Source: a virus
UHGV virus genome: UHGV-0304565
Length of the DNA stretch: 36,690 bases
Reading direction: 5' to 3' (one strand)
Below the pieces are notes generated by a model. It was not told the DNA's origin. It ran no database searches and saw only the letters and a list, made by a program, of their open reading frames with translations. This document shows, piece after piece, positions 23,092-29,189 of this stretch. How positions within the stretch are numbered: position 1 is the first letter of the stretch; each line of letters begins with the position of its first letter. The position numbers were made by a program, and so were the translations under genes.

Positions 23092-23140
23092 ATTAGCGCA
23101 ATGAATGCGTAGAATTAACGGAAAAAGGAGTTTTCCATCA

Positions 23141-23887
23141 ATGTCTAATACCCATGTAAAAAACATCAAACTTGGTGCCTGTAAGGTGTCGTTTGGTGGT
23201 GTGGATTTGGGTTACACCAAAGGTGGTGTTCAGGTTGAAGTAGCCACTGAAACGCTGAAAGTCACCGTCGATCAGTTGGGGCAGACCGTAATTTCCGAAT
23301 TAGTTCAGGGGCGCAACATTACCATCACCGCGCCTCTGGCTGAGTCTGTACTCCAAAACATGGTTGACCTGATGCCTGGTTCTACTCTGAGCGAAGATGA
23401 CAGCTCTGTCACGATCACATCTGCACAGGGCGTTAACCTGATTGATGTGGCGAAGGAGCTGGTTCTGACTCCGCAGGACACCACCGACTATGTGTTGACC
23501 ATCCCGAAAGCGGCAACCGCGGGCAACTTCACTATGACCTACCAGTCTGATGATGTTCGTGTGTTCTCTGTTCAGTTCAGCGCATACCCGGATGATGAAG
23601 GCGTTCTGGGCAAAATGAGCGGCCCTAAACCGGTAAAAACTGTGTCGATCTCACCGGAATCTCCAACCGTAAAAGCTGGAGAAACTGTGCAACTGACAGC
23701 CGAAATCACTCCAGCTGATGCCGCAGACAAAACCGGTGTTTGGGAATCCGAAGATCAGGAAAAGGCCACGGTAGATCAAACGGGTCTGGTACGTGGTGTG
23801 GCGCAGGGTTCTACAAATATCTCCTTCACCAGCAATAGCGGTGGTAAGAAGGCAACTAAGTCAGTAACGATTAACCCCGCAGATTAA
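23141..23887 (+). CDS. Major tail protein with C-terminal Ig-like (Big_2) domain
   Basis: ORF track 23105..23887; ATG 23141 with SD aaaaaggag preferred. C-terminal segment matches the Big_2 pattern of the 19561 gene; same architecture as lambda V. Confidence 0.7.
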   Translation: MSNTHVKNIKLGACKVSFGGVDLGYTKGGVQVEVATETLKVTVDQLGQTVISELVQGRNITITAPLAESVLQNMVDLMPGSTLSEDDSSVTITSAQGVNLIDVAKELVLTPQDTTDYVLTIPKAATAGNFTMTYQSDDVRVFSVQFSAYPDDEGVLGKMSGPKPVKTVSISPESPTVKAGETVQLTAEITPADAADKTGVWESEDQEKATVDQTGLVRGVAQGSTNISFTSNSGGKKATKSVTINPAD

Positions 23888-23900
23888 TCAGTAATTAAGC

Positions 23901-23927
23901 AGAGGCTCAGGATGGGCCTCTCTTTTA
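23901..23927 (+). terminator. Intrinsic (probably partial) terminator after the major tail gene
   Basis: Stem agaggc (23901-23906) / gcctct (23916-23921), T-run 23923-23926. Confidence 0.55.
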
Positions 23928-23942
23928 AAAGGATTTTAACCA

Positions 23943-24260
23943 ATGACCAAATTACTCGATCTCGATTCCATTCTGCCTCCGAAGAAAAGCATCAAATTTG
24001 GCGGTCAGGAATATCCCATCGTTGAAATGACGGTAGGTCTGTTCGTTTCCATCAAGCAGATGGAAGGTAAAGATCTCATGAACATGTCTCCTGTTGAGCA
24101 AGTGACAGCTTATGCAGATCTGGTTCGTAAGGTTATCCCTTCAGTACCTGACGAAGTTCTTGAAAAACTGACTGTTCCGCAACTCCAGCAGATCTTCACC
24201 TTCGCTATGGAAGTGATTGATGAAGAAAACGAAAAAGCGGCTGGCGAAGGGGCAAAGTAA
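23943..24260 (+). CDS. G: Tail assembly chaperone (lambda G-like)
   Basis: 105-aa acidic protein between major tail and tape measure genes. Confidence 0.65.
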   Translation: MTKLLDLDSILPPKKSIKFGGQEYPIVEMTVGLFVSIKQMEGKDLMNMSPVEQVTAYADLVRKVIPSVPDEVLEKLTVPQLQQIFTFAMEVIDEENEKAAGEGAK

Positions 24261-24610
24261 TTTCCCGCGATGAATCCGGGACAAGGACCGTCTCAATAGA
24301 TCTCGGATTCTATTTCAGTCGTGTAGTTGCTCACTACGCCGTGTCGCCATTAGAGCTACTGAACGTTCCTCTCACGATGTTCTGGATGCTCAGTCGCAAT
24401 ATAGACCGTCTGCGTGCGGAAGAGGATGTCCGCAACTTACAAGTCGCTCGTGCGTCCCAGGCGGATGGCGAGGCTGTGAAGGCGTTCATGGAGGGTTTGC
24501 AACTCAGGATTGGAAGACCAGTCGTAACAGATAAAGTCTACGATCCAAGCCAGGATAAGGCAGACCCTGACGCCAAAGAGCAACTGATGCAAATATTTGG
24601 CAGAGGATGA
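23943..24610 (+). CDS. Tail assembly chaperone GT-like fusion made by a programmed -1 frameshift near 24231-24260
   Basis: The -1 frame is open from 24224 to 24610 and overlaps the end of G; candidate slip sites gAAAAAg (24231-24237) or AAG-TAA (24255-24260). Confidence 0.5.
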
Positions 24611-24617
24611 CAAGGGA

Positions 24618-27600
24618 ATGTCACAAAACGTAGAGTTTATCCTGTCGCTGGAAGACAAACAGTTTACAGCGTCAATCGATCGTGCGGGGAAACTGCTTAC
24701 TCGATTTGGTGAGCAGGTAACAAAGCCTGCTCAAAAAATCCAAACCTTTGAACGCTCTTTGGGTTCGGTCGCCCGTATTATTGGCGTTCTGGAAAGCAAG
24801 CTCGATTCTACGGCAGATAAACTACAGGATGTAGCTGCCGGTTTTGAGCTTGCTTCAGATGCTACGCGTAAAATGCGTGGCAACATCACCAGCCTCAATT
24901 CTGGTCTTAAAGCCCTGATTGAGCGCGTCGATACGACAACTTCTTCAGTAGATAAACTCACCGCGTCATTACGTAAAGTGCAATCAGAGCTAAATGATTT
25001 CTCTGATTGGGCGACCTATGCAAGCAAAAGCGCAAGCCGCTTTGGTACGGAGGTCAAAGAAGCCTCTGCGTCCGTGAGTGGCATGAATACGCGTCTTAAT
25101 GCCACGACGAAGCGACTCAGTAATTGGGGTGTCACAACGAGTCAGGCTGCCGAGGGACTGAAAAAGGTTCGTGAGCAGATGGACGAAGTTATCGGACGTC
25201 AGCAACTGATTAGCAAGCCGGTACGCGTTCGTACATCTGGAAGTGGCGATGGTGGTAGCGGGCGGCGTAGCGGCGCTTCTGGCCATAGCGGTAAAAGTAA
25301 CGAAGGAGGTATGTTCTCTGGCCTTCGTGGCAACATTTTCCTGCTTGGCGAGATCGGAGATGCAGCCAGAACGGTTACTGACATCATGTTTGGGTGGCAG
25401 AAGCCTATTGTTGAAGCTGCGGCCGAAATGGAACGTATGCGGGTGATGCTTCGAGGGTTGAATAAGGAGAAGTCCAACCCGGGCCAGGCTGCCGCTGATG
25501 ATATGAAGTACATCGTAGACATGGCTCAAAATGCGCCGTTCGCGATGCAGGCGTTAACAGACTCCTTCGTGAAGTTTCGTTCTGCTGGCTTAGATCCAAC
25601 CGATGGTTCTCTGAAGGCGCTGGTGGACTCCGTTGCTCGTTTTGGTGGTGATAGTGAGCTGTTGAAACGTGCGGCTGTGGCCGTTCAGCAGATGTCCGGT
25701 AAGGGCGTTGTGTCAATGGAAGAGCTACGTCAGCAATTAGGTGAAGCCGTTCCTAACGCGATGCAGGCAATGGCAGACGCCGCAGGCATCACTATGGGGG
25801 AACTAACTAAAGCCGTTGCCAGCGGTACGGTTGAGGCAAAGCAGGCGTTGTCTCTGATGTTTGTTGGTCTGCGTGCGGAGAACGAGAACGCAGCGAAAGA
25901 CATGATGCAAACCTACACAGGTGCGCTGGCGCAACTTCAGACGTCATTCACGTTATTTGCTGATCGAGTTGGTCAGGCTGGATATCTGGATTCTCTATCA
26001 AAGGGGATGAAAGAACTGGCTTCAATCATGAATAGCGCCGAAGGGATTTCGTTTGCCAATTCTTTAGGTTCGGGGTTAACGACGGCAATCGATGGGTTGC
26101 GTCAGCTTGCTCAATGGTTAGCAAAGAACCAAGAGCTGGTAATTAATCTCGGTAAGGTCGTGGCCGCGATGGTTGCGTTCAAACTGATGCGAGCAGGGAT
26201 CATGGGGGTAGTTGGCGCTGGCAGCCAGATGGTTAGCACCTTTGCCACGATGGCGACCGCCATACAGACTCCATTTAACCTCGGCGCTACAGCAGTAACT
26301 CGATTCAATCGTGCGGCACGTATGGGGTTGGCTCCGATCCCCTCTCTTATTTTCGCCATCCGTGGGGCGATTACGGGGCTTAAAGGTGCTTTTGCAGGAT
26401 TAACGGCGTTCATTGCAGCAAACCCTATAGGGGCAGCATTTACAGTTGCCACTGTAGCTGTTGCTGGCCTAATCACGTACATGACCATGCTCCGCAGCGA
26501 AACTTCAAAGGTCGTTGACGAGATTAGGAAAATACCAGAAGCGATGACAGCGGCCAAACGTGCACAAATGGCCGACCGCGCAGAAAAGCTCGAAAAGCAG
26601 ATTCTTGCTGATCAACGAGCATTAAAAACTGGTGAGGGTGTTAATTACGTATCTAACTCTGCCGGTGTTATTACTCACAAAGAGTCGAAGGCTGACATCG
26701 AAGCTCGCCTGAAAAAAAATCAGGAAGAGTATCAAAAGATAACCGGCACGATAGCTCTTGGTGACGGCGCTGTAGCAAAGCGTTTGGCTAAAGAGGCTGC
26801 CGAATCTCAGATTGAGAAAATTCGAGCGGAAAACCAGATTTTCGCGGCAACATTCGTGAAGGCCCGGCAGGAGGCTCTGGAGAAGATCCAGAAAATCAAT
26901 GATGACAGTTCACTTTCAGATGATGAAAAGAACAAGCTATTGGCACCGTTACGTGAAACGGTAAACAAAAGCTATCTGGAGCCTGCGCAAAAACTGGTTG
27001 ATTCACTTTCTTCTCGTAAGAATGCGACCGAGAAGCAAATCGCGACTCTTAATGATCAGCTTGAAAAAGCCAAAAAGGATGGAAATACCGAGCAGATCCA
27101 GAAACTGCAAGGCAGTATTCGTGGTTATCAGGAGCATTTGGAAACCGTTGCTCAGGAACTGACTCAGGCAGAGTTCGAGAGAGATAACGCGGCCAAAACT
27201 GGTAAGGGCGTGATGTCAAACCAGGGGACTGTTCTTGGGTTAGGTACAACTGATAAAGCTGCTCAGAAGGCGCTGGCGCAATATATGCGAAACCAGATGG
27301 ATTCTGCGACTTATCAGCGTACTTTGCCTGACGGCACTCCGATGATGGACTTCGAAGGTAAGCCTATTATTGGGCCTAAACAACTCAAGACGCAGCTTAA
27401 TTTGCAGAAAGCATCCAGTGCCAGCTCTCTGGAGAAAATGAGCGATGAAGAGCGTGCCGCAGCCATTGCTGCACTGACTAAAGCTCGTGAACAGGATGCC
27501 GCAGCCGCCGAGAAAGCCGCCCAACGATCAGCTAATGCTTCGCAGCGTGCGGCCAAGAAGGAACAGGCAGCGCAACAGAAACTGGCAGCCGGATACCAGA

Positions 27601-29189
27601 AGGCTCTGGACAAAGCCGATCAGCTTATGGGGCAAATGGGTGAAAGCTCTAAGGCTACGGTATCGTTTGATCAGTCTCTTCGCGATACAACGAAATCGCT
27701 GACAGATTTGGCTAATGCGGTTCCTAACGAGTTCATCACTCAAGAGATGATCGACAAGGCGAAAAAACGTCTTGAAGACCTCAAAAATGCGACACCTGAA
27801 TATCGCGAGATGTTTAATCGCCGCAATGTTGAGCAGATGATCTCCACTTGGGCACCGGAGGCGGATTCCATTATTAGTGCTGGCTATACGCCGTCTCGCG
27901 AAGAGAAAGTTGCTGATTTCGAAGACACCTACAACCGCAATCTCAAAGCGTTGATAGAACTTCGTGATAAGGCGTCTGATCCTAAAGTTGTGGCGCTTTA
28001 TACAAAGAAAATCAATCAACTGATTGCTGCTGGCAATACCGCGCTCATTAAAGAGACAGGGACTGCGACGCAGAAGTTGGCACTGGAATACGAAAACCTG
28101 GCAGAGCAGATCGAAAGCACCTGGACTGACTTGTTTAGTGGCTTAACGGATGTCCTGACTGATTTCGTTATTAACGGGAAGATGAGCTTCTCCAGCCTGT
28201 CTCAGTCCATTTTGAAAGATATCACCAATATGGTCGTGAAGTCGCAGATCACGCTGCCTCTAATGAACATGTTGGGGATGGGAACCACCGCAGCTGGTAG
28301 TTCACAGAGTGGTAATTTGCTCACCGGGGTTGCTTCCGCAGTTGCCAATCAAGGTGTGCGCATAAGCAACACTGTTAATGGCGACAAGTCGGTAGGAGAA
28401 GCCACGAAGGAGACGTCCAGTTCGGTAACTGGATTGGGGCAAACGACACAGCAGACCACCAGCGCAATTGGCACAGCAACAAATGCGATTGGTAGCTGGG
28501 TATCAGGGCTATTTGATAGCACCGAAGCCAAAGATGCTGAGACAAAAGCAGTGAAGGATTCCATCTTCTCGATGCAGAACCTCAGCTCTGTTACCGGTGC
28601 TCTGTCTGCCGCGTTTGCAATGCTTGGAGCTAATGCTTCCGGCTCTGGTAATAAGTGGTTGAATTTCGGCGCGACAGTTGCATCTGGGTTGGTTTCAGTA
28701 TGGGCAGGTGGTGGATTCGATGGATTGATGTCCGGTTCTTCTGGCTCAACTTCCGGGTTCAACAATCTGACCAGTTCTGCTGCCGATGGCACGAATGGTA
28801 TTCCTGCAATTCCGAAGTTTGCAAATGGTGGCATATTCGGAAAAGACGGCGTGATCCCGCTCCGGGCATACCAGAAAGGCGGTATCGCCAACTCACCTCA
28901 ATTGGCGTTGTTTGGGGAAGGCGATATGAATGAGGCGTATGTTCCATTGCCTGATGGTCGAACAATCCCTGTAACGCTCAGTACCGATGGTATGAGTGGA
29001 GGAGGAAATGTTCTTTCTCCGGTATCAATTGAGATCAACGTCCATAGTGACGGTAGCACAACTGAATCCGGCGATACAGAAAGCATATGGAACAATGCCG
29101 CTCAACGGATGAAAGCAATCGCGCTTGAGACTATCGCTCAAGAGAAACGCCCTGGCGGATCACTCAACCCAAACACTCAACGTAACTAA
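24618..29189 (+). CDS. Tail tape measure protein (about 1523 aa)
   Basis: Very long alanine-rich helical protein with a hydrophobic central segment; position after G/GT. ORF track starts at TTG 24597. Confidence 0.85.
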   Translation: MSQNVEFILSLEDKQFTASIDRAGKLLTRFGEQVTKPAQKIQTFERSLGSVARIIGVLESKLDSTADKLQDVAAGFELASDATRKMRGNITSLNSGLKALIERVDTTTSSVDKLTASLRKVQSELNDFSDWATYASKSASRFGTEVKEASASVSGMNTRLNATTKRLSNWGVTTSQAAEGLKKVREQMDEVIGRQQLISKPVRVRTSGSGDGGSGRRSGASGHSGKSNEGGMFSGLRGNIFLLGEIGDAARTVTDIMFGWQKPIVEAAAEMERMRVMLRGLNKEKSNPGQAAADDMKYIVDMAQNAPFAMQALTDSFVKFRSAGLDPTDGSLKALVDSVARFGGDSELLKRAAVAVQQMSGKGVVSMEELRQQLGEAVPNAMQAMADAAGITMGELTKAVASGTVEAKQALSLMFVGLRAENENAAKDMMQTYTGALAQLQTSFTLFADRVGQAGYLDSLSKGMKELASIMNSAEGISFANSLGSGLTTAIDGLRQLAQWLAKNQELVINLGKVVAAMVAFKLMRAGIMGVVGAGSQMVSTFATMATAIQTPFNLGATAVTRFNRAARMGLAPIPSLIFAIRGAITGLKGAFAGLTAFIAANPIGAAFTVATVAVAGLITYMTMLRSETSKVVDEIRKIPEAMTAAKRAQMADRAEKLEKQILADQRALKTGEGVNYVSNSAGVITHKESKADIEARLKKNQEEYQKITGTIALGDGAVAKRLAKEAAESQIEKIRAENQIFAATFVKARQEALEKIQKINDDSSLSDDEKNKLLAPLRETVNKSYLEPAQKLVDSLSSRKNATEKQIATLNDQLEKAKKDGNTEQIQKLQGSIRGYQEHLETVAQELTQAEFERDNAAKTGKGVMSNQGTVLGLGTTDKAAQKALAQYMRNQMDSATYQRTLPDGTPMMDFEGKPIIGPKQLKTQLNLQKASSASSLEKMSDEERAAAIAALTKAREQDAAAAEKAAQRSANASQRAAKKEQAAQQKLAAGYQKALDKADQLMGQMGESSKATVSFDQSLRDTTKSLTDLANAVPNEFITQEMIDKAKKRLEDLKNATPEYREMFNRRNVEQMISTWAPEADSIISAGYTPSREEKVADFEDTYNRNLKALIELRDKASDPKVVALYTKKINQLIAAGNTALIKETGTATQKLALEYENLAEQIESTWTDLFSGLTDVLTDFVINGKMSFSSLSQSILKDITNMVVKSQITLPLMNMLGMGTTAAGSSQSGNLLTGVASAVANQGVRISNTVNGDKSVGEATKETSSSVTGLGQTTQQTTSAIGTATNAIGSWVSGLFDSTEAKDAETKAVKDSIFSMQNLSSVTGALSAAFAMLGANASGSGNKWLNFGATVASGLVSVWAGGGFDGLMSGSSGSTSGFNNLTSSAADGTNGIPAIPKFANGGIFGKDGVIPLRAYQKGGIANSPQLALFGEGDMNEAYVPLPDGRTIPVTLSTDGMSGGGNVLSPVSIEINVHSDGSTTESGDTESIWNNAAQRMKAIALETIAQEKRPGGSLNPNTQRN

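What the first reader, a model, noticed from the sequence alone, without database searches (positions are those of the whole stretch)
24224..24260. Programmed -1 frameshift window joining the G-like chaperone to the downstream T-like frame
The -1 frame relative to G is open from 24224 to 24610, overlapping the last 12 codons of G and ending 8 nt before the tape measure start. This is the conserved G/GT arrangement of long-tailed phages. Candidate slip sites are the A-run gAAAAAg at 24231-24237 and the AAG-TAA stop context at 24255-24260. Neither is the canonical lambda GGGAAAG heptamer, so the exact site and efficiency are uncertain.
Basis: partly seen in the sequence, partly recalled or inferred. 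Interest (0 to 1): 0.4.

Follow-up and report, generated by a model that had tools for sequence, protein, structure and literature searches.

The report
Unannotated tail-chaperone frameshift in SSU5-like phage-plasmid
This phage-plasmid most likely makes a second, longer tail-assembly chaperone when a small share of ribosomes slip back one base on A-AAG at the last codon of the first gene; the trick is well known in phages but is not annotated in any public record of this family that I sampled.

Summary

- **Source.** The window is 99.8% identical to Escherichia phage Cyrano, an SSU5-like phage-plasmid.
- **Gene order.** A 105-aa ORF (23943-24260) lies between the major tail gene and the tape-measure gene. 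Its -1 frame is open from 24224 to 24610.
- **The -1 frame is coding.** It is continuous in all 98 related loci. The 28 codons between G's stop and the first start codon (GTG 24341) are conserved as protein. They vary mainly at third codon positions (11/3/22; p=5e-4).
- **No independent start.** GTG 24341 is present in only 40 of 64 unique relatives. No candidate start in the T frame has a Shine-Dalgarno sequence.
- **Slip site.** In 27 of 48 unique sequences a -1-frame TGA cuts the overlap to 13 nt. This excludes the A-run at 24231-24237. The only invariant slippery element is NNA_AAG followed at once by TAA or TAG (24254-24260). It persists down to 37% G identity.
- **Wider family.** More distant relatives carry the canonical heptamers A_AAA_AAG or G_GGA_AAA at the same place.
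- **G fold.** The G model resembles annotated tail assembly chaperones (Foldseek).
- **Stimulator.** A hairpin at 24266-24323 is a plausible stimulator but is unproven.

Verdict: a new, unannotated member of the known G/GT class. It uses a tetramer-plus-stop site instead of a heptamer. Interest is modest.

The parts
23141..23887 (+). Major tail (tube) protein gene with a C-terminal Big_2 Ig-like domain. It is the upstream neighbour that defines the synteny.
   Evidence: Pfam Big_2 E=5.8e-26 and PHROG major-tail hits. Annotated 'Tail protein' in Cyrano. ATG 23141 has a strong SD (-8.2 kcal/mol), whereas ATG 23105 has none.
23943..24260 (+). G-like tail assembly chaperone ORF: 105 aa, 11.7 kDa, pI 4.6. 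Stop TAA at 24258-24260.
   Evidence: ORF list. SD of -5.4 kcal/mol. phrog_893, function unknown. The AlphaFold model (pLDDT 72) has as its best BFVD Foldseek match an annotated tail assembly chaperone (E=2.8e-4, TM 0.64), and about 12 more such proteins are in the top 50. Three of 100 distant relatives weakly hit Pfam Phage_TAC_7.
24224..24260 (+). Overlap of the zero frame (G) and the open -1 frame in this window. Only the last 13 nt (24248-24260) are open in the -1 frame in most relatives.
   Evidence: Frame translation. Overlap lengths among 48 unique relatives are 13 nt in 27, 37 nt in 18, 28 nt in 2 and 97 nt in 1.
24231..24237 (+). Rejected as the conserved slip site.
   Evidence: A downstream -1-frame TGA (window-equivalent 24245-24247) is present in 27 of 48 unique relatives. 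Codon 98 is GCC or GCA (Ala) in diverged relatives.
24254..24260 (+). Proposed slip site A_AAG (24254-24257) with the zero-frame stop TAA (24258-24260) directly 3'. tRNA-Lys re-pairs from AAG 24255-24257 to AAA 24254-24256, and the next codon read is GTA 24257-24259.
   Evidence: Codon 104 is GCA (60) or GTA (4), codon 105 is AAG in 64 of 64, and the stop is TAA or TAG. The same motif occurs at 48% and 37% G identity. The conserved -1 peptide starts at K-V-I.
24257..24610 (+). T-like -1 frame segment: 117 codons plus the TGA stop. The predicted GT product is join(23943..24257, 24257..24610), 222 aa, 24.8 kDa.
   Evidence: Peptide KVI[ST]R[DE]ESG..VSID[LF]GFYFSRV.. is conserved. Variable sites by codon position are 11/3/22 for 24257-24340 and 39/23/74 for 24341-24607. 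phrog_1131, function unknown. Product sizes.
24341..24343 (+). GTG used as the start of a separate 'hypothetical protein' in public annotations. Probably not a real start.
   Evidence: GTG is present in only 40 of 64 unique relatives. SD energy is +0.9 kcal/mol. Gene callers place this ORF's start at five or more different positions.
24266..24323 (+). Candidate stimulatory hairpin. It starts 5 nt after the stop and 8 nt after AAG. Its core helix is GAATCCGG 24272-24279 paired with TCGGATTC 24303-24310.
   Evidence: The same architecture appears in independent folds of all 8 SSU5-group sequences, with z from -1.3 to -3.9 and one at 0.03. The core 8 bp are paired in 28 of 28 distinct sequences, with one compensatory U-A to G-C change and four one-sided pair-preserving changes. 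Both arms encode conserved residues, so the evidence is only suggestive.
24618..29189 (+). Tape measure protein gene, the downstream neighbour.
   Evidence: Pfam TMP_3 E=4.3e-27 and Tape_meas_lam_C E=6.1e-13. SD of -5.8 kcal/mol.

Best explanation
**What it is.** The 105-aa ORF at 23943-24260 is the tail assembly chaperone (G analogue) of an SSU5/Cyrano-type siphovirus phage-plasmid.

**What most ribosomes do.** Most ribosomes terminate at TAA 24258 and release G (11.7 kDa).

**What a minority do.** On the last sense codon, the single enterobacterial tRNA-Lys (anticodon mnm5s2UUU) unpairs from AAG (24255-24257). It re-pairs one base upstream on AAA (24254-24256). Reading then continues in the -1 frame from GTA 24257 to TGA 24608-24610. 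This yields a 222-aa G-T fusion (24.8 kDa).

**Likely stimulators.** The adjacent stop codon (a slow or empty A site) and a downstream hairpin at 24266-24323 probably raise slippage to the percent range.

**Likely function.** By analogy with lambda, the G part would coat the tape measure protein. The T part would recruit the major tail protein, and the G:GT ratio would be fixed by the frameshift efficiency.

**Shown here:**
- the frame geometry;
- coding conservation in the -1 frame with no start codon;
- invariance of NNA_AAG_TAR;
- a chaperone-like fold for G.

**Inferred:**
- that the fusion is actually made;
- whether tRNA-Lys slips in the A site or the P site;
- the roles of the stop codon and the hairpin;
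- the efficiency;
- the binding partners.
For: **Synteny.** Major tail protein with Big_2, then G, then the T frame, then a tape measure with TMP_3 and Tape_meas_lam_C.

**Frame continuity.** The -1 frame is continuous in all 98 loci (48 unique sequences). It is also continuous in relatives at 48%, 37% and about 30-40% G identity.

**Coding signal.** Bases 24257-24340 have no ATG, GTG or TTG. Even so, the stretch is conserved as protein. Variable sites by codon position are 11/3/22 (chi-square p=5e-4), the same pattern as the rest of T.

**No independent start.**
- GTG 24341 is present in only 40 of 64 unique relatives.
- SD energies before T-frame starts are -0.9 kcal/mol or weaker, against -5.4 for G, -5.8 for the tape measure and -8.2 for the major tail protein.
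- There is no promoter-like site nearby.

**Slip site.**
- A -1-frame TGA limits the overlap to 13 nt in 27 of 48 unique sequences.
- Within those 13 nt only A_AAG allows re-pairing.
- The base before the GCA or GTA codon varies (G, A or C), so a tandem P-site slip is not conserved.
- AAG is found in 64 of 64 sequences and the preceding codon always ends in A.

**Wider family.** Distant relatives carry canonical heptamers at the same place: L103 has GCA_AAA_AAG (A_AAA_AAG) and L101 has G_GGA_AAA.

**Second site in relatives.** In L092, L094 and L097 the major tail gene ends C_CCA_AAG_TAA or TAG, with its Big_2 domain in the -1 frame.

**Literature.**
- A_AAG is the most shift-prone Z_ZZN tetramer in E. 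coli. It reaches 5.6% with a strong downstream stimulator and about background without one (PMC4066793).
- NNA_AAG sites are used by B. subtilis cdd and by IS1222 (PMC5009743).

**G fold.** The best BFVD hit is an annotated tail assembly chaperone at E=2.8e-4, and many more are in the top 50.

**Hairpin.**
Against: - There is no protein-level evidence for the fusion. Neither the Cyrano paper nor the other literature I searched mentions it.
- There is no canonical heptamer. An A_AAG tetramer alone is barely above background in E. coli reporters, so function depends on stimulators that are not proven here.
- Single-sequence hairpin z-scores are weak (-1.3 to -1.6 in the window). Both hairpin arms lie in conserved coding sequence, and the structure is not conserved in L098.
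- From general knowledge, UAAU is an efficient termination context, which would work against long pausing.
- G and T have no Pfam or NCBIfam hits and no profile similarity to lambda G or T.
- The fold search for the T domain was uninformative.
Confidence: 0.8

Rival explanations
1. The T-frame ORF is a separate gene translated from its own start (GTG 24341, or ATG 24377 or 24386), as every public annotation I sampled has it. There is no frameshift.
For: Public records list two separate hypothetical proteins. An ATG at the FWM motif (24386) is universal among relatives.
Against: GTG 24341 is missing in 24 of 64 unique relatives. None of the candidate starts has an SD. The 28 upstream codons have no start codon, yet they are conserved as protein with third-position-biased variation. 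They are also modelled as structured, with pLDDT 70-84. Gene callers disagree on the start, giving products of 74 to 116 aa.
Confidence: 0.07
2. The frameshift happens at the A-run GAA_AAA_G (24231-24237), either by ribosomal slippage on A_AAA or by transcriptional slippage. This would give ...DEENEK-SGWRRGKVISR...
For: In this window the -1 frame is already open at that point, and A_AAA allows tRNA-Lys to re-pair.
Against: In 27 of 48 unique relatives, SSU5 included, a -1-frame TGA lies downstream of the run. Codon 98 is Ala in diverged relatives. The -1 peptide upstream of K-V-I is not conserved. From general knowledge, five A residues are too few for efficient RNA polymerase slippage. A small side contribution in this particular phage cannot be excluded.
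Confidence: 0.03
3. Termination-reinitiation. Ribosomes finish G at TAA and restart nearby on a non-canonical codon (ATT 24260 or GTA 24257). This would make a free T protein of about 116 aa instead of a fusion.
For: The conserved T-frame peptide begins right at the stop codon. One gene caller produced a 116-aa product starting near there (P0179).
Against: The codon at 24260 is ATT, ATA, ATC or GTT across relatives, so it is not a conserved initiator. There is no SD, beyond weak and non-conserved purine-rich runs. Distant relatives place canonical heptamers 6 to 9 nt before the stop, which makes sense only for frameshifting. From established knowledge of lambda G/GT, the T domain must be linked to G to function.
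Confidence: 0.05
4. The open -1 frame is a non-functional relic or a chance ORF.
For: In the single sequence, openness alone has P of about 0.12.
Against: The frame is conserved across Escherichia, Salmonella, Klebsiella, Yersinia, Photorhabdus and metagenomic relatives, with a coding substitution pattern.
Confidence: 0.02

Closest known systems
Phage lambda G/GT tail assembly chaperones and the conserved -1 frameshift of long-tailed phages (Levin et al. 1993; Xu et al. 2004, 2013, 2014, as summarised in PMC5009743)
   Same: Two overlapping ORFs sit between the major tail gene and the tape-measure gene. The second ORF is in the -1 frame without its own start. The slip lies near the end of G. 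G is small and acidic, the fusion is about twice its size, and the T frame ends just before the tape-measure start.
   Different: There is no G_GGA_AAG heptamer. The site is a bare A_AAG tetramer on the very last sense codon, abutting the stop. G and T show no detectable sequence similarity to lambda G or T (hhalign probability below 1%) and no Pfam family. G is 105 aa here against 140 aa in lambda.
NNA_AAG / A_AAG -1 frameshift sites: B. subtilis cdd (A_CGA_AAG), IS1222 (G_CGA_AAG) and synthetic E. coli constructs (PMC5009743; PMC4066793)
   Same: A single tRNA-Lys slips from AAG to AAA. There is no re-pairing requirement for the 5' codon. Efficiency is low unless stimulated. The 5' codon ends in A.
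   Different: The 5' codon here is GCA or GTA, not CGA. The zero-frame stop follows immediately. The biological context is phage tail assembly, not a transposase or an incidental extension.
'Shifty stop' frameshifting (Weiss et al. 1987; prfB CUU_UGA +1; Listeria phage PSA +1 sites; from general knowledge and PMC5009743)
   Same: The slippery codon lies directly 5' of a stop codon. Competition with release factor could therefore set the frameshift ratio.
   Different: The direction is -1, not +1. The contribution of the stop codon is not tested here.
Ig-like domains added to phage structural proteins by programmed frameshifts (Fraser et al. 2006; from memory)
   Same: In relatives L092, L094 and L097 the Big_2 domain of the major tail protein lies in the -1 frame after C_CCA_AAG_TAR. 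This is the same A_AAG-plus-stop layout as the G/GT site.
   Different: In this window the Big_2 domain is fused in frame (23141-23887). This parallel therefore concerns relatives only.

Membership tests
G/GT-type tail assembly chaperone pair with programmed -1 frameshift (functional class, Xu et al. 2004) | Two adjacent or overlapping ORFs located between the major tail protein gene and the tape measure gene | tested here: met
   Major tail protein 23141-23887 (Big_2), G 23943-24260, T frame 24224-24610, tape measure 24618-29189 (TMP_3, Tape_meas_lam_C). The same order occurs in all relatives examined.
G/GT-type tail assembly chaperone pair with programmed -1 frameshift (functional class, Xu et al. 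2004) | The downstream ORF is in the -1 frame, lacks its own conserved start and SD, and is conserved as coding sequence right up to the overlap | tested here: met
   Variable sites by codon position are 11/3/22 in the start-less 28 codons. GTG is present in only 40 of 64 unique relatives. SD energy is -0.9 kcal/mol or weaker.
G/GT-type tail assembly chaperone pair with programmed -1 frameshift (functional class, Xu et al. 2004) | A conserved slippery sequence within the overlap (canonically X_XXY_YYZ) | tested here: inconclusive
   The canonical heptamer is absent in the window and in the whole SSU5 group. A conserved Z_ZZN tetramer A_AAG is present in 64 of 64 sequences. Distant family members do have A_AAA_AAG or G_GGA_AAA.
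G/GT-type tail assembly chaperone pair with programmed -1 frameshift (functional class, Xu et al. 2004) | G has a tail-assembly-chaperone fold | tested here: inconclusive
G/GT-type tail assembly chaperone pair with programmed -1 frameshift (functional class, Xu et al. 2004) | Both G and GT are produced at a fixed ratio, both are needed for tail assembly, and both are absent from virions | not testable with these tools
   This needs protein analysis and genetics. No such data are in the papers I searched.
Lambda gpG / gpT sequence families (e.g. Pfam Phage_tail_T) | Significant sequence or profile match to the family model or to lambda G or T | tested here: not met
   There are no Pfam or NCBIfam hits for G or T. 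hhalign of the family profiles against lambda G and T gives probabilities of 0.6% and 0.3%. The pair is an analogue by position and architecture. It is not a demonstrable sequence-family member.
Z_ZZN (A_AAG) tetramer -1 frameshift sites of Enterobacteria | A_AAG in the correct register (AAG a zero-frame codon preceded by A), with the -1 frame open across it | tested here: met
   GCA AAG TAA lies at 24252-24260, and the -1 frame reads AAA GTA. The register is conserved in all relatives down to 37% G identity.
Z_ZZN (A_AAG) tetramer -1 frameshift sites of Enterobacteria | A stimulatory element (downstream structure at about 5-9 nt and/or an upstream SD-like sequence), needed for percent-level efficiency | tested here: inconclusive
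   The hairpin at 24266-24323 starts 8 nt after AAG. It is recovered in all 8 SSU5-group folds, and its core is 100% paired with one compensatory change. However, z-scores are modest, both arms are under coding constraint, and it is absent in L098. The upstream purine-rich GGNGARGRG is not conserved as an SD.

The most novel reading that the evidence does not exclude
A_AAG placed directly against a stop codon may be a lineage-specific, reusable -1 'shifty-stop' cassette in SSU5-like phage-plasmids. Release-factor competition, not a heptamer, would set the product ratio. The same cassette would serve two tail genes: G/GT in all members, and the addition of the major tail protein's Ig domain in some relatives. 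The family would also have moved between canonical heptamers (A_AAA_AAG, G_GGA_AAA) and this minimal form.
Probability: 0.3. Interest if true: 0.45.

Novelty: new member of a known kind. Interest (0 to 1): 0.3.

Why it matters
**Annotation.** The same region occurs in 749 PLSDB plasmids, including Yersinia pestis and Salmonella records, and in 12 phage records. Every annotated record I sampled lists two 'hypothetical proteins'. The PHROG families involved (893 and 1131) are labelled 'unknown function'. Recognising the pair as G/GT assigns both families a function. It also corrects hundreds of gene models and removes an ORF whose start is called inconsistently.

**Mechanism.** This is a natural, well-conserved case of a minimal A_AAG tetramer used for an essential viral recoding event, with the stop codon as the immediate 3' context. 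It would make a convenient system for testing how termination competes with -1 slippage.

**Limits.** The class of event is textbook, so the conceptual gain is modest.

Tried and rejected
**Searches that gave nothing**
- Pfam and NCBIfam scans of G and T found nothing above noise.
- The T-domain model (pLDDT 65) gave no informative fold match. The only hit was one uncharacterised homologue.
- hhalign of the G and T family profiles against lambda G and T showed no similarity.
- An Rfam scan of 24100-24500 gave only chance-level hits, and no known frameshift element.
- The promoter and terminator scan found no internal promoter for T.
- Literature searches on the SSU5 or Cyrano frameshift found nothing. 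The Cyrano paper mentions neither a frameshift nor a chaperone.

**Ideas considered and rejected**
- The A-run as slip site: rejected on the comparative evidence above.
- A tandem slip on G_GCA_AAG: the base before GCA or GTA varies (G, A or C) and re-pairing would be poor.
- Transcriptional slippage: there are only 3 A residues at the conserved site.
- The +1 frame: it closes within 4 codons of G's stop.
- An upstream SD-like stimulator (GGNGA / AAGGGG): the Gly-Glu codons force part of it and the rest varies.
- A short local hairpin, TCCCG-N9-CGGGA at 24263-24281: its pairs never covary, so it says nothing either way. It also competes with the longer hairpin.

**An error of my own**
- My first frame script read the +1 frame by an off-by-one error. 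I corrected it.

Full report
**1. What the sequence shows**

The window is 99.8% identical over 23100-25100 to Escherichia phage Cyrano (OV696614). Cyrano is the SSU5-like phage-plasmid of E. coli LF82. The window is also 81-91% identical to SSU5 and to Klebsiella phage-plasmids.

The layout of the region is as follows:
- The ORF 23943-24260 encodes 105 aa and ends ...GAA GGG GCA AAG TAA.
- In the -1 frame two stops (TGA TGA, 24218-24223) are followed by an open stretch from 24224 to the TGA at 24608-24610.
- The first ATG, GTG or TTG in that frame is GTG 24341.
- The +1 frame closes four codons after G's stop.
- The tape-measure ATG is at 24618.

There is indeed no X_XXY_YYZ heptamer in the overlap.

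On its own, the 39-codon open stretch upstream of GTG is not remarkable. Shuffles of the same bases stay open about 12% of the time.

**2. Context**

The upstream gene (23141-23887) is a major tail protein with a C-terminal Big_2 domain. The downstream gene (24618-29189) is a tape measure protein with TMP_3 and Tape_meas_lam_C domains.

G and the T-frame product match only PHROG families of unknown function, phrog_893 and phrog_1131. Neither matches anything in Pfam or NCBIfam.

Public annotation treats them as two separate hypothetical proteins:
- Cyrano, SSU5, Klebsiella phage ST13-OXA48phi12.3 and PhiR41_1 all do so, with no joined feature.
- The same region is present in 749 PLSDB plasmids: Klebsiella 307, Escherichia 199, Enterobacter 89, Yersinia 62 and Salmonella 49. 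All 39 annotated records among the 40 sampled read 'hypothetical protein (x2)'.
- In the protein collection the T ORF is called with at least five different N-termini, giving products of 74 to 116 aa, and none is named.
- The paper that re-annotated Cyrano mentions neither a frameshift nor a chaperone.

**3. Comparative test of the frameshift**

I collected 98 related loci from viral, genome and metagenome collections. They contain 48 unique sequences for the stretch from G's tail to the T stop, and 64 unique for the whole G-T region.

In every one of them the -1 frame runs without a stop from G's last codons to the T stop.

The -1-frame translation is conserved from exactly K-V-I-[ST]-R-[DE]-E-S-G...V-S-I-D-[LF]-G-F-Y-F-S-R-V onward. 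Upstream of that Lys it is not conserved; relatives read RKRKSGWRRG, RG, RS, RR or SRCWGRS.

A codon-aware alignment gives these counts of variable sites by codon position in the -1 frame:

| Segment | Codons | Variable sites at positions 1 / 2 / 3 |
|---|---|---|
| G's stop to GTG 24341 (24257-24340) | 28 | 11 / 3 / 22 (chi-square p = 5e-4) |
| Rest of T (24341-24607) | 89 | 39 / 23 / 74 |
| G codons 1-90 | 90 | 52 / 31 / 85 |

That stretch is therefore translated in the -1 frame, although it has no start codon.

The annotated start is not credible:
- GTG 24341 is present in only 40 of 64 unique relatives. The others have GTA, GTC, GTT or ATT.
- Candidate T-frame starts have no Shine-Dalgarno pairing. 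Their energies are +0.9, +0.4 and -0.9 kcal/mol, against -5.4 for G, -5.8 for the tape measure and -8.2 for the major tail protein.
- No promoter-like site precedes the ORF.

**4. Locating the slip**

In 27 of 48 unique sequences, SSU5 itself included, the Gly101 codon is GGT instead of GGC. This creates a TGA in the -1 frame at window-equivalent 24245-24247 and leaves only 13 nt of overlap.

Any conserved slip must therefore lie within AGG GGC AAA GTA (-1 frame), which is GGG GCA AAG TAA in the zero frame.

In addition, Lys98 is Ala (GCC or GCA) in diverged relatives.

Within the 13 nt the pattern across 64 unique sequences is:
- codon 103 varies (GGG, GAG, GAA or GAC);
- codon 104 is GCA (60) or GTA (4), so it always ends in A;
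- codon 105 is AAG in 64 of 64;
- the stop is TAA or TAG.

The base before codon 104 varies (G, A or C). A two-tRNA heptamer slip is therefore not conserved. Only A_AAG is.

Relatives at 48% (L098) and 37% (L099) G identity still have GCA AAG TAA or TAG, with the T motif following in the -1 frame.

Members of the same PHROG at about 30-40% identity keep the -1 arrangement but use other sites:
- L103: GCA_AAA_AAG CAG TAA, the dnaX-type A_AAA_AAG heptamer.
- L101: G_GGA_AAA.
- L102: CAG GGG AAG TAA.
- L104: GAA_AAG, with A_AAA also present.

Canonical heptamers at the homologous place in the wider family are strong evidence that the arrangement is a programmed frameshift. They suggest that the SSU5 group uses a reduced form of it.

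**5. An independent parallel**

In three diverged lineages (L092/L093, L094/L095 and L097) the body of the major tail protein ends GCC CCA AAG TAA or TAG. The Big_2 domain continues in the -1 frame (PKVKVTGVTV...). That site is the shift-prone heptamer C_CCA_AAG abutting a stop.

In 86 other loci, and in this window, the body and the Ig domain are fused in frame.

So the 'A_AAG then stop' layout recurs in this phage group at a second gene where frameshifting is a known strategy.

**6. Mechanism**

From the literature:
- Z_ZZN tetramers can direct -1 frameshifting in E. coli. A_AAG is by far the best of them, reaching 5.6% with a strong downstream pseudoknot, but it is barely above background without a stimulator (PMC4066793).
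- NNA_AAG sites are used at B. subtilis cdd and in IS1222. Their efficiency depends on the wobble behaviour of the tRNA that reads the 5' codon (PMC5009743).
- E. coli has a single tRNA-Lys for both AAA and AAG (PMC5009743).

A stimulator is therefore expected. Two candidates exist.

*The stop codon.* It sits directly 3' of AAG in every SSU5-group sequence. This 'shifty stop' layout would leave the A site empty while tRNA-Lys occupies the P site.

*A downstream hairpin.* Folding the 68-71 nt after AAG separately gives the same long irregular hairpin in all eight SSU5-group sequences tested. It starts 5 nt after the stop, at window 24266-24323.
- The z-scores range from 0.03 to -3.9, and most lie between -1.3 and -2.3.
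- The 8-bp core is GAAUCCGG 24272-24279 paired with UCGGAUUC 24303-24310.
- The core is paired in all 28 distinct sequences. It shows one compensatory U-A to G-C change (Photorhabdus) and four one-sided changes that keep pairing.
- Both arms encode conserved residues (ESG and LGF), and the structure is not kept in L098. I therefore rate it as suggestive only.

Whether tRNA-Lys slips in the A site or in the P site cannot be decided from sequence.

**7. Is G a chaperone?**

- The G model (pLDDT 72; a beta-hairpin followed by four helices) finds an annotated tail assembly chaperone as its best BFVD match (E=2.8e-4, TM 0.64). About a dozen more are among the top 50.
- A profile search found 426 distant relatives of 100-130 aa. 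All 100 that I scanned fall in phrog_893, and three weakly match Pfam Phage_TAC_7.
- There is no profile similarity to lambda G or T.
- The fold search for the T domain was uninformative. In the T model, however, the start-less N-terminal 28 residues are the better-predicted part, with pLDDT 70-84.

The pair is thus a positional and architectural analogue of lambda G/GT. It is not a demonstrable member of lambda's sequence families.

**8. Predicted products**

- G is 105 aa, 11.7 kDa, pI 4.6.
- GT is join(23943..24257, 24257..24610), 222 aa, 24.8 kDa.
- The junction reads ...AAGEGAK|VISRDESG....

**9. Verdict**

The A-run candidate is rejected. Independent initiation, reinitiation and chance are unlikely.

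This is a new, unannotated member of a well-known class. Its slip site is minimal (a tetramer plus a stop) instead of a heptamer.

Its practical value is in correcting annotation across hundreds of phage-plasmid records, and as a natural system for studying competition between termination and slippage. Its conceptual novelty is modest.

Noticed in passing
L092:2150-2260, L094:2150-2260, L097:2140-2250; compare window 23141-23887: In three diverged lineages the body of the major tail protein ends C_CCA_AAG_TAA or TAG, and the Big_2 Ig-like domain lies in the -1 frame. This is probably a second programmed -1 frameshift with the same A_AAG-plus-stop layout. In the window and in 86 other loci the body and the Ig domain are fused in frame. 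No consistent downstream hairpin was found.
   Followed up: partly
L103:1790-1830, L101:1790-1824, L102:1800-1821, L104:1020-1062: Distant phrog_893 relatives (about 30-40% identity) keep the -1 T frame but use different slip motifs: A_AAA_AAG, G_GGA_AAA, G_GGG_AAG next to the stop, and GAA_AAG. The slip site therefore turns over within one chaperone family.
   Followed up: partly
window 23897-23926: A strong hairpin (-14.7 kcal/mol, z=-3.1) followed by a T-run (TTTT) lies between the major tail gene and G. It looks like a terminator or attenuator and could lower expression of the chaperone and tape-measure genes relative to the tube protein. The simple terminator scan did not list it.
   Followed up: partly
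window 23105 vs 23141: The mechanical ORF for the major tail protein starts at ATG 23105, which has no SD. ATG 23141 has a strong SD (-8.2 kcal/mol) and matches the public 747-nt CDS.
   Followed up: yes
L076 (G codon 14) and L042 (major tail gene): One metagenomic relative has a premature TAG in G. Another has the Big_2 domain in the +1 frame, with the body ending ...CCAAAGCGGTGA. These may be assembly errors, pseudogenes or further variants.
   Followed up: no
window 24341-24610 and its homologues in the public protein collections: Gene callers give the T-frame ORF at least five different N-termini (74, 77, 83, 86, 89, 108 and 116 aa), all named 'hypothetical protein'. This scatter is a useful signature of a missed frameshift.
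   Followed up: yes
L085 (Bacillota MAG) and L089 (Candidatus Fimivivens MAG): Contigs that are 98% and 74% identical in G to this enterobacterial phage-plasmid are filed under Bacillota MAGs in the genome collection. This is probably a binning artefact and not a true host.
   Followed up: no
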